The position numbers were made by a program, and so were the translations under genes. Positions 48,369-50,074 of a stretch of DNA of 64,000 nt are shown here, in pieces (position 1 is the first letter of the stretch; each line of letters starts with the position of its first letter). The notes under the pieces are model-generated. The model did not search any database, was not told the origin of the DNA, and saw only the letters and a list, made by a program, of their open reading frames with translations. The DNA lies in assembly GCA_017654855.1 (NCBI GenBank), contig CM030332.1:1736001-1800000 (forward strand), given 5' to 3'. This DNA comes from Podospora anserina (lineage: Eukaryota).

Positions 48369-50074
48369 ATGGACACCAGATCGCTACGGCCTCAGGGCTT
48401 TCTCGGTTACTTCTTTCTCGTTGTGCGAATTCTGTCGATAGTTGCTTCGGGGCTTGTTGTAGGGTTCACGGTCAACTTCATAGTTGCTTTCAACAAAGCA
48501 GGACTTGGGCTGCCGCCAACAATTGTGGCATTAGTGGCTTTGGTATGTCTACGAGGGTCCTTCGGCTCTTAATCTATTCAGACTTGACTGACAACGGTGA
48601 CCAGACCAGCACAGCACTACTCTACACCCTAGTCACTATTACGAGCTTCAGTCGGCGATTCGTCCCATATATCGCCACTATAGTTCTGGATTTCGTCCTT
48701 CTTATTCCAGCTGTAACTGTCACAGTACTCCTGGCCCAGCCCGTGACCAAAAGGTCATGCGCCGCCATCGCTCCTTCAACCACCTTCACAATTACCGTGC
48801 CACCCAATACCTCATTCGGCCAAACAACATTCCCATCCAACACCAACGGGAAAGAGGCCTGCTACCGGGTATTCGCCATCTGGATCTCCCTCATCGTCCT
48901 TTCTGCCCTGTTCATCCTCAGCACGCTTTCCTCCCTCCTACTCCAACTGCGCGAGCGCAAGCTTCAACGACAGGAATACGACTTTAATGAAAATTCGTCC
49001 GACCCTCTCAACCGCCCCGGCACCGATTTCTTCACCCAACGTCCCATCACCATCATCTCCAACCCCTCTAGAGATTATTCCACCGGCCGCAAGCCCAAAA
49101 ACAAATGGGACAGCTTCGGCGACTGGGATCGCGACCTCGACGAGAAAAAGTCCCAATGGCGCCCAGCAAGTCAAAGAATCGACAGCTGGAACACCGCCAG
49201 CAGCACCACCCTTCCATACAAAACCAAAGACGAAATCCCCCGCTCCAACACAAGGGAATACCGCCCCCGCAACAACCGTCTCGACTCCCCTACCCTCCCC
49301 AACCGCCCCTCCGACCTCGCCAAAGCCTACCGTGCCTACCGCACCACCGGAGCGACTCCCACCTCCCCCTCCACCCGCCCCCGCTCTCGACAGCGAGGTC
49401 TACCGGGTAACCCCCAGTAGGGACTCGGGGCGCCTACCACCCCACTCCCCCAAAACCCAACAATAATCACGCCGACCCACCTCCCAAAAGCAAAAGAACA
49501 GACCGTTATAATTGAAGACGTCAACGGAGGGAGGAGAACACCCGGCTGGCCCTTTCCCTCAACAGCGGGAAAGAAGTCATCGGCGGGACACCTCCAACCT
49601 CCACCTACGACACCGAATAATACAAGACGAGCAAGAGCCGACACGGCAGAGAGCAGTCTCAGTCTAGGAGCAGGGATGATCCCCATTGCGTTGTCGTCCT
49701 CTCTGTCGGAGTCGTCGTCGTTTTCACCTGCTTTTGGGGGCGGTGGATTGTTGGGAAAGGAAGGGGAGAGGGAGGATCAGGCGCCCTTGTTGTTGCCCAA
49801 GACTACTTATAACCCTAGTACAAAAGTTGATCCGAGGGAGAGTAAGCTGAGAGAGAAGAAGAAGACGGGGAGGAGTGTCGTGCAGGGCATGGCTCCTTTG
49901 GAGGGTGTGCCGAGTAGTGATAGTGTGGTTCATGAGAGTTTGCTGCCGTCGCCGTTGGTGCTTGGCCAGGAAGTGAAGGGGAGGAAGAAAAAGGAGGAGA
50001 GTGGATGGTGGGGGCCGTTGGCGAGTGTGATTGGGCGGTCGAGGGGTGAGTTTGATCCGGGGAATGTTGTGTAA
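48369..50074 (+). CDS. Four-TM (MARVEL-like) membrane protein with a long disordered tail, interrupted by one in-frame TAG at 49418-49420 (329 aa to the stop, 547 aa if recoded); intron 48543-48604
   Basis: Exon 1 (58 codons) splices GTATGT..CTGAC..CAG in frame to the 48545 ORF, with four hydrophobic segments. The same frame stays open from 49421 to TAA at 50072-50074. Confidence 0.8.

What the first reader, a model, noticed from the sequence alone, without database searches (positions are those of the whole stretch)
49411..50074. Single in-frame UAG with its A in a hairpin loop splits a membrane-protein gene: candidate A-to-I premature-stop correction or readthrough
Seen: the spliced ORF from 48369 hits TAG at 49418-49420 (..GGT AAC CCC CAG TAG GGA CTC GGG..), and the same frame runs stop-free for 217 more codons to TAA at 50072-50074, ending GWWGPLASVIGRSRGEFDPGNVV. 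No other lesion is visible. The stop lies in a hairpin, CCCC-C-AGT[AGGG]ACT-C-GGGG (49411-49430), with A49419 in the loop, U at -1 and G at +1. The extension turns G-rich like the 3' ends of several other CDSs here. Established: Sordariomycetes such as Fusarium and Neurospora carry out sexual-stage A-to-I mRNA editing that favours U at -1 and loop positions, and that rescues genes by recoding UAG to Trp. Inference: a 329-aa vegetative form and a 547-aa fruiting-body form (..PGNPQ-W-GLGAP..). UAG-G readthrough stimulated by structure is the alternative.
Basis: partly seen in the sequence, partly recalled or inferred. Interest (0 to 1): 0.85.

Follow-up and report, generated by a model that had tools for sequence, protein, structure and literature searches.

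The report
Conserved in-frame UAG splitting a membrane-protein gene
A Podospora membrane-protein gene carries one in-frame UAG that related fungi keep at the same spot, followed by a conserved coding extension, so the stop is probably recoded, most likely by sexual-stage RNA editing, though that editing has not been seen.

Summary
The gene is Podospora anserina Pa_1_4935: its spliced translation equals protein P0008. The TAG at 49418-49420 and the open 217-codon continuation to TAA 50072-50074 are real. Only 1 of 20000 shuffles keeps that frame open.

The stop is neither a sequencing error nor a strain allele. Six named species of the P. anserina complex and four other genera have gene models ending at the same residue. 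All 8 related metagenome loci carry TAG, never TAA or TGA, at the homologous codon. In 7 of those 8 the frame then runs 163-208 codons to the same C-terminal motif.

Public annotations show three artefacts: models that stop at the TAG, models that start after it, and joined models that skip it. A paper describes the same three artefacts for a conserved editing-corrected stop in Fusarium.

RNA-like contigs of four runs cross the TAG unspliced and unchanged. Contigs cannot show partial editing.

Verdict: a conserved recoded stop. A-to-I editing to Trp is the best guess (0.55) and translational readthrough is the live rival (0.25). It is a new member of a known kind.

The parts
48369..48542 (+). 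Exon 1 (58 codons, first hydrophobic segment) of Pa_1_4935
   Evidence: The spliced translation equals P0008.
48543..48604 (+). Intron, 62 nt, GT..AG
   Evidence: The joint 48541/48604 skips 62 nt in contigs of X15 and X16. Contigs of X17 and X20 retain it.
48605..49417 (+). Exon 2 up to the stop (271 codons): three more hydrophobic segments, then a Pro/Arg/Ser-rich tail ending ..RPRSRQRGLPGNPQ
   Evidence: Orthologue gene models end at the same residue.
49418..49420 (+). In-frame TAG, the candidate recoded stop. A49419 would be the edited base (U at -1, G at +1, G at +3).
   Evidence: It is TAG in the window and in 8 of 8 related loci, and unchanged in contigs of 4 runs.
49411..49430 (+). Its outer arms, the C run (49411-49415) and GGGG (49427-49430), correspond to a CCCC(G)/(C)GGGG pairing potential kept in relatives.
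   Evidence: -7.9 kcal/mol alone; 97.7% of cells pair, but 4 of 5 pairs never vary, so there is no covariation support; not favoured in context in this species.
49421..49435 (+). The five codons after the stop (GGA CTC GGG GCG CCT), with nucleotide-level conservation beyond coding needs
   Evidence: The third bases of codons +1 to +5 are the same in all sequences. Only 4 of 40 fourfold sites in the gene are invariant, and 2 of those 4 are codons +3 and +5.
49421..50071 (+). 217-codon extension in the same frame, predicted disordered, with short conserved motifs (G-x-IP-x-A, LLPKTTY, HESL-x-P-x-PL)
49997..50071 (+). Conserved C-terminal motif ESGWWGPLASVIGRSRGEFDPGNVV
   Evidence: The columns S, G, W, W, G, L, I, D, P and N are invariant in 15 of 15 sequences.
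50072..50074 (+). TAA, end of the long form

Best explanation
Pa_1_4935 and its relatives in Sordariales encode a small membrane protein with four hydrophobic segments and a long, disordered cytosolic tail. The tail is interrupted by one ancient, conserved UAG. Termination at the UAG gives the 329-aa form. A second, 547-aa form carries the conserved C-terminal motifs and is made when the UAG is recoded. The most likely route is A-to-I editing of A49419 (UAG to UIG, read as Trp) by the tRNA-deaminase-based mRNA editing that operates during fruiting-body development in Sordariomycetes.

Shown here: the stop, its conservation as TAG, the conserved in-frame extension, and the absence of splicing across it. 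Inferred: that the two parts are translated as one chain. Not shown: that editing is the route, and its timing.
For: 1. Real and fixed. The spliced translation equals P. anserina P0008. Six named species of the complex have 329-aa models ending ..GNPQ. Contigs of 4 runs from 4 studies carry the TAG unchanged.

2. Conserved stop. Models from Cercophora, two Triangularia species and Apiosordaria end at the same residue. The homologous codon is TAG in 8 of 8 metagenome loci, which form about three lineages beside Podospora.

3. The extension is coding.
- 1 of 20000 shuffles keeps it open.
- In 7 of 8 loci it runs 163-208 codons to the same ..SGWWG..DP.N.. end.
- dN/dS of the extension is 0.31-0.69 in 8 pairs, against 0.10-0.38 upstream in 7 pairs.
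- It is 72% identical to the Triangularia verruculosa model P0017. The upstream part is 69% identical to P0006.

4. One chain rather than two genes. The frame is the same in all 9 DNA sequences and conservation abuts the TAG on both sides. The first Met after the TAG lies at codon 86, 15 or 32 depending on lineage.

5. The annotation pattern matches a published editing-corrected stop. Ten of 12 hits to the extension are C-terminal-only ORFs. Five joined models have a gap at the TAG column in 5 of 5 cases. One starts its second block at the codon after the TAG. The CHE1 paper describes the same three artefacts (PMC11169179, passages).

6. Site context fits fungal editing. U is at -1, G at +1 and G or A at +3 in 9 of 9 sequences, against the stated preferences (PMC11156358, section 5). 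TAG is the only stop that a single A-to-I change in a U-A context turns into a sense codon. This is inference from the code table and that review.

7. In four relatives (L005-L008) the A is predicted unpaired with probability 0.78-1.00.
Against: - No A>G was seen at 49419 in contigs of X15, X16, X17 or X20. Contigs drop minority variants and the stages are unknown, so this is weak evidence. It also means there is no direct evidence of editing at all.
- In P. anserina itself the A is predicted mostly paired (0.10-0.40 unpaired), and the local fold is no better than shuffles. This runs against the loop preference of fungal editing.
- No relative with TGG at this codon was found: 0 of 9 DNA sequences, and 0 of 5 joined models show any residue there. 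The usual 'restored Trp' history is therefore not documented.
- UAG followed by G is listed as the most readthrough-prone UAG context in yeast (PMC4615788, table 1). The conserved bases 3' of the stop would suit a readthrough signal as well.
- No list of editing sites for P. anserina was found in the library.
Confidence: 0.55

Rival explanations
1. Programmed translational readthrough. The ribosome decodes the UAG with a near-cognate tRNA at some frequency, helped by the conserved bases 3' of the stop. This makes the long form without any change to the RNA.
For: All the comparative evidence fits equally well: conserved stop, and conserved in-frame extension with no conserved start. G follows the UAG in 9 of 9 sequences. 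A review table ranks G>C>U=A for UAG readthrough in yeast (PMC4615788). The third bases of the five codons after the stop are invariant, although only 4 of 40 fourfold sites in the gene are; this points to an RNA-level signal 3' of the stop. No A>G was seen in RNA-like contigs (weak).
Against: The classic leaky motifs, as I recall them (UGA-CUA in fungal peroxisomal isoforms, UAG-CAR-YYA in plant viruses), are absent. That recollection comes from no call. TAG is kept in 9 of 9 sequences with no switch to the generally leakier UGA (ranking UGA>UAG>UAA in PMC4615788, table 1). In this fungal class many in-frame UAGs are documented as corrected by editing: 71 genes in F. graminearum (PMC11156358).
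Confidence: 0.25
2. No recoding. The downstream frame is expressed on its own, either from an internal start on its own transcript or through a rare alternative splice that skips the TAG.
For: Automatic annotation calls separate downstream genes in Triangularia verruculosa, Podospora fimiseda and Cladorrhinum. A Met lies at codon 15 after the TAG in 5 of 8 sequences. Contigs of X17 and X20 start inside the gene, at 48510 and 48538, so other transcript forms may exist.
Against: The first Met is at codon 86 in Podospora and codon 32 in L005 and L006, yet the codons before them are open and conserved. Examples are G-x-GVPGRRGG directly after the TAG, and EDVNGGRRTPGWPFPS shared with P0017. The frame equals the upstream frame in all 9 sequences. 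No joint near the TAG appears in contigs of 4 runs.
Confidence: 0.12
3. Decaying relic. An old nonsense mutation truncated the protein, and the downstream frame is untranslated sequence that has not yet decayed.
For: dN/dS in the extension (0.31-0.69) is higher than upstream. The extension is predicted disordered. L004 has a frame change inside its extension.
Against: The TAG is shared by lineages with synonymous divergence above 1. Despite that, 8 of 9 sequences keep the frame open to the same invariant C-terminal motif. One of 20000 shuffles stays open in a single sequence.
Confidence: 0.03

Closest known systems
Premature-stop-correction (PSC) editing genes of Fusarium graminearum, e.g. CHE1, PUK1, AMD1
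   Same: An in-frame genomic TAG with the reading frame continuing. U at -1. A short form without editing and a long form with it. A conserved TAG that produces the same three annotation artefacts: stop taken as gene end, downstream Met taken as start, and a false small intron (PMC11169179; PMC11156358).
   Different: Editing is demonstrated for those genes and not here. The CHE1 site is described as conserved among closely related Fusarium species. Here the TAG is shared by Podospora-type and Chaetomium-type lineages of Sordariales. The protein family differs: a membrane protein with a disordered tail.
Stop-loss editing of canonical UAG stops (hundreds of genes in F. graminearum and N. crassa; DBF2 as a studied case)
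   Same: If the 329-aa form is the main product, this is a stop-loss event that adds a C-terminal extension (PMC11156358; PMC13123824, abstract only).
   Different: The hyphal stop-loss extensions quoted in the passages I read are 28 and 11 aa (PMC11169179). Here the extension is 217 codons and is conserved as protein across lineages.
Programmed stop-codon readthrough giving C-terminally extended isoforms
   Same: A conserved stop, a conserved in-frame extension, and conserved bases 3' of the stop (PMC4615788).
   Different: The known leaky motifs, as I recall them, are not present. The stop is UAG rather than the leakier UGA.
MARVEL-domain membrane proteins (Pfam PF01284)
   Same: Four hydrophobic segments. 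UniRef labels these proteins 'MARVEL domain-containing'.
   Different: The Pfam score is below the family's cut-off: 18.5 against 32.8 bits for P0023, and no hit for P0008 or P0037.

Membership tests
Fungal A-to-I corrected stop (PSC or stop-loss editing site) | Genomic in-frame TAG with the frame continuing into conserved coding sequence | tested here: met
Fungal A-to-I corrected stop (PSC or stop-loss editing site) | U at -1 and A or G at +1 and +3 of the edited A | tested here: met
   U, G, and G or A in 9 of 9 sequences. The preference is quoted from PMC11156358, section 5.
Fungal A-to-I corrected stop (PSC or stop-loss editing site) | Edited A lies in a hairpin loop (a preference, not a strict rule) | tested here: inconclusive
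   Window: P(unpaired) 0.10-0.40 and fold z-score 0.32. L005-L008: 0.78-1.00. L001-L004: mixed. No covariation.
Fungal A-to-I corrected stop (PSC or stop-loss editing site) | A in DNA but G in part of the RNA, specific to the sexual stage | tested here: inconclusive
   Only contigs of 4 runs of unknown stage could be laid. They show no A>G at 49419 but cannot show minority variants.
Fungal A-to-I corrected stop (PSC or stop-loss editing site) | Site kept as TAG (or as TGG) in orthologues | tested here: met
   TAG in 8 of 8 loci and in the window. No TGG was seen.
Fungal A-to-I corrected stop (PSC or stop-loss editing site) | Host belongs to a lineage with sexual-stage mRNA editing | not tested
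   Editing is reported for the Sordariales N. crassa and S. macrospora (PMC11169179 introduction). ADAT genes are up-regulated in P. anserina perithecia (bioRxiv 10.1101/2024.12.09.627484, passage). No P. anserina site list was found.
Programmed translational readthrough | Conserved stop with a conserved in-frame extension lacking its own start | tested here: met
Programmed translational readthrough | Leaky stop context or a stimulatory 3' element | tested here: inconclusive
   UAG-G is ranked the leakiest UAG context in yeast. Third bases after the stop are invariant. The recalled canonical motifs are absent.
Programmed translational readthrough | Long protein made from unedited mRNA | not testable with these tools
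   Needs proteomics or a reporter.
MARVEL domain (PF01284) | Pfam score at or above the gathering cut-off | tested here: not met
   P0023 scores 18.5 against a cut-off of 32.8 bits. P0008, P0037 and P0007 give no hit.

The most novel reading that the evidence does not exclude
The UAG is an ancient switch held by selection, not a tolerated lesion. It has been kept as TAG since before Podospora-type and Chaetomium-type Sordariales diverged. A constrained RNA element sits next to it. One gene therefore yields a short membrane protein in mycelium and, after stage-specific editing, a long form carrying conserved C-terminal docking motifs in fruiting bodies. This would be a deeply conserved case in which both the stop and its correction are needed. 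It would be a clean test for the disputed question of whether fungal stop-codon editing is adaptive.
Probability: 0.4. Interest if true: 0.65.

Novelty: new member of a known kind. Interest (0 to 1): 0.5.

Why it matters
Corrected in-frame stops are known in Fusarium and Neurospora. Whether such editing is adaptive is under active dispute, to judge from the titles and abstracts of PMC13431901 and PMC13684035.

This case is unusual in three ways: the TAG is shared across distant Sordariales lineages, the 163-217-codon extension is conserved, and the bases beside the stop are constrained. That makes it a good test case in a genetically tractable, non-pathogenic model.

It also shows that this gene family is mis-annotated in every named genome seen here (truncated, split in two, or joined through a false intron).

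No paper in the library names the gene: the search 'Pa_1_4935' found 0 papers. The search combining 'A-to-I', 'MARVEL', 'perithecia' and 'stop codon' listed none on such a gene among the 12 of 56 papers listed. Supplementary tables, where editing-site or expression lists would be, were not open.

Tried and rejected
- Whole genome: none is held for this window, so no search for paralogues or other split genes was possible.
- Sequencing runs: no listed holder is on record as RNA. I laid four runs guessed to be RNA. Two show the spliced intron. None shows a change at 49419 or a joint near the TAG. Contigs cannot show partial editing, strand or level. Contigs break between 49281 and 49411 in 3 of 4 runs, at different places, and I draw nothing from that.
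  - Splice from the GTAACC donor at 49407: no joint.
  - Sequencing error or strain allele.
  - No downstream conservation.
- Pfam on both halves and on full models: nothing above cut-off.
- Fold of the extension: disordered, mean pLDDT 50.4, pTM 0.12. No fold search was made.
- RNAalifold on 9 sequences gives a different structure, with the UAG paired to downstream CCUGG/CCUAC. It has 18 pairs, of which 1 shows a change on both sides. This is not convincing either.
- Word-index protein searches were each limited to 8000 candidates and found 6, 8 and 3 proteins. Absence of a TGG-bearing relative is therefore weak evidence.
- The bacterial promoter and terminator scan found 0 sites and is irrelevant to a fungus.
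- Podospora australis P0007 (38% identical) runs past the site without a residue for the stop and ends 15 residues later. I could not get its DNA, so this is unexplained.

Full report
**What is there.**

The window region 48369-50074 holds a two-exon gene on the + strand.
- Exon 1 is 48369-48542.
- The intron is 48543-48604 (62 nt, GT..AG).
- Exon 2 starts at 48605 and reaches TAG at 49418-49420.

The spliced translation is letter for letter the 329-aa protein P0008. Its source names it PODANS_1_4935 of Podospora anserina S mat+. The intron is spliced out in contigs of runs X15 and X16.

After the TAG the same frame runs 217 codons to TAA at 50072-50074. Only 1 of 20000 composition-preserving shuffles keeps this frame open, with both local and global shuffling. 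The other two frames hold 7 and 12 stops. The distal third of the extension has strongly position-specific base use, with 64% G and 4% A at third positions.

**The stop is not an error or a private allele.**

Contigs of four runs from four studies cover 49418-49420 with no difference from the window (tables 3 and 8). Twenty runs hold at least half of the sampled words of the stretch.

Gene models of six named species of the P. anserina complex are 329 aa long and end ..RGLPGNPQ. Models from Cercophora samala, Triangularia setosa, Apiosordaria backusii and Triangularia verruculosa end at the homologous residue..PGNPR or ..PSNPR.

**The downstream frame is conserved coding sequence.**

I searched the 217-aa extension against 1.84 billion representatives. 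It found 12 proteins at E<=0.001.
- Ten of them (132-261 aa) consist only of the extension region. They include separate gene models in Triangularia verruculosa (P0017, 72% identical), Podospora fimiseda and Cladorrhinum. P0017 and the upstream-half model P0006 both lie on a contig of 245362 bases.
- Two of them (475 and 440 aa; Achaetomium, Chaetomidium) join both halves.

Alignments show invariant motifs ending ..SGWWG.L..VI...P..(E/A)(Y/F)DP.N...

**DNA of relatives.**

One scan of metagenome contigs with the extension alignment matched 139 stretches to a pattern. tblastn confirmed 8 of them, giving 8 loci. By pairwise identity of 600 bases around the stop they form about three lineages: L001-L004, then L005, L006 and L008, then L007. 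Identity between lineages is 59-67%.

In 8 of 8 loci the upstream membrane-protein frame ends at an in-frame stop after ..G(L/Y)P...PRAG, homologous to ..GLPGNPQ of the window. In 8 of 8 the codon is TAG followed by G.

In 7 of 8 loci the frame then stays open for 163-208 codons to the shared C-terminus. L004 changes frame inside the extension.

Exon 1 with the same intron position is visible in L005, L007 and L008.

dN/dS is 0.10-0.38 for the upstream part (7 pairs) and 0.31-0.69 for the extension (8 pairs). Synonymous divergence exceeds 1 between some lineages. The extension is less constrained than the membrane part but is not neutral. An AlphaFold2 model of it is disordered, with mean pLDDT 50.4, which fits short linear motifs in a flexible tail.

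**One chain or two genes?**

- The two frames coincide in all 9 DNA sequences.
- Protein conservation runs right up to the TAG on both sides..GLPGNPRAG | G-x-GVPGRRGG...
- The first Met after the TAG is at codon 86 in the window, codon 15 in five loci and codon 32 in two.
- In Podospora the 85 codons before that Met are open and match the Triangularia model.
- No contig of four runs shows a joint anywhere near the TAG. One contig of X17 runs unbroken from 48510 to beyond 50700, and one of X15 from 49311.

I therefore read the extension as translated by passage through the UAG.

**Annotation pattern.**

Public models fall into three kinds.
- They stop at the TAG (P. anserina complex, Cercophora, Triangularia, Apiosordaria).
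- They start at a Met after it (T. verruculosa, P. fimiseda, Cladorrhinum).
- They join both halves.

In all 5 joined models (Achaetomium, Chaetomidium, Chaetomium strumarium, Parachaetomium, Staphylotrichum) the TAG column of the alignment is a gap, with gap edges that differ from model to model. In the Staphylotrichum model the second block starts exactly one codon after the TAG of its close relative L007. This is as if the AG of the TAG had been taken for a splice acceptor. That the joined models hide a TAG is my inference, because their DNA could not be fetched.

The same three artefacts are described for the conserved editing-corrected stop of CHE1 in Fusarium (PMC11169179, passages of section 7 and discussion).

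**Mechanism.**

Sordariomycetes edit A to I in mRNA during sexual development. The review PMC11156358 (abstract, sections 5 and 6) states the following.
- There is a strong preference for U at -1, A or G at +1 and +3, and hairpin loops.
- UAG stops are frequent targets.
- 71 F. graminearum genes need such a correction.
- Hundreds of canonical stops are edited.

The present site has U at -1, G at +1, and G or A at +3 in 9 of 9 sequences. Its stop is always TAG, the one stop that a single edit in the favoured U-A context turns into Trp.

For P. anserina I found only a statement that tRNA adenosine deaminase genes are up-regulated in perithecia (bioRxiv 10.1101/2024.12.09.627484, passage). I found no list of editing sites.

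I put editing at 0.55.

**The hairpin.**

- In context, GUAGG pairs instead with upstream UCUAC or downstream CCUAC.
- The fold is no more stable than shuffles: z-score 0.32, and 117 of 200 shuffles fold as well.
- A49419 is predicted unpaired with probability only 0.10-0.40.
- In relatives, a CCCC(G)/(C)GGGG pairing around the TAG is possible in 97.7% of cells. However, 4 of 5 pairs never vary, and 395 of 500 shuffles reach the observed share of paired cells. There is no covariation evidence.
- The A is predicted unpaired at 0.78-1.00 in L005-L008 and variably in L001-L004.

**A constrained element beside the stop.**

The more solid finding is nucleotide-level constraint next to the stop. Of 40 fourfold-degenerate codon columns shared by 7 sequences, only 4 have an invariant third base. 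Two of those 4 are codons +3 and +5 after the TAG. The third bases of codons +1, +2 and +4 are also identical in all 9 sequences. Something in the RNA beside the stop is under selection. It could serve either editing or readthrough.

**Rival: readthrough (0.25).**

Every comparative result fits readthrough as well. I had expected UAG-G to be a tight stop. The review table I read says the opposite for yeast: G>C>U=A after UAG (PMC4615788, table 1). Against readthrough, UGA is generally leakier (same table), yet the stop is never UGA here. Documented in-frame UAGs of this fungal class are corrected by editing.

Separate expression of the extension (0.12) and a decaying relic (0.03) fit the data poorly, for the reasons given above.

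**Protein family.**

UniRef labels these proteins 'MARVEL domain-containing'. Pfam's MARVEL model scores 18.5 bits in P0023 against a cut-off of 32.8, and gives no hit in P0008, P0037 or P0007. I call it a MARVEL-like protein with four hydrophobic segments, as read from the sequence. I do not file it as a member.

**Limits.**

- No genome of the window or of named fungal relatives could be searched.
- The single read-laying run could use only contigs.
- Supplementary tables were closed.
- The three word-index protein searches scored only 8000 candidates each.
- P. australis P0007 passes the site without a residue for the stop and ends soon after. This remains unexplained.

**Verdict.**

This is a real, conserved, almost certainly recoded in-frame UAG in a mis-annotated gene family of Sordariales. 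It is a strong new candidate of a known kind. The editing mechanism is still to be shown.

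Noticed in passing
window 48510-48604: Contigs of X17 and X20 start inside exon 1 (48510, 48538) and retain the intron. They have one base left out at 48559, and the same runs give no cover over 48182-48463. 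X15 and X16 cover the 5' part and splice the intron. This may be a second transcript form, antisense RNA or a strain difference.
   Followed up: no
window 50243-52369 (- strand): The convergent neighbour is a 708-aa Zn(2)-Cys(6) transcription factor (Zn_clus 5.1e-10, Fungal_trans_2 5.6e-47). With the extension counted, only about 170 bases separate the two stop codons. Single contigs bridge both genes, so the 3' ends of the transcripts probably overlap.
   Followed up: partly
window 50345: C in the window but T in contigs of 3 of 4 runs (X15, X16, X20), inside the neighbour's coding region. Probably a strain polymorphism.
   Followed up: no
L004 about 690-1200: This locus has the conserved TAG but changes reading frame in the middle of the extension. 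It may be an assembly error, a real frameshift or a lineage losing the long form.
   Followed up: no
P0007 (Podospora australis), C-terminus: This 364-aa model continues ..GTIPGLGLPVDDPARGNYF past the place of the stop without a residue for it. GLGLP aligns with the post-stop GLGAP of the window. Either the codon is lost in this species or the model is wrong.
   Followed up: no
window 49336-49776 and 49724-50242 (- strand): Long open frames of 146 and 172 codons lie on the opposite strand of the extension. They probably follow from the skewed base composition. They were not examined.
   Followed up: no
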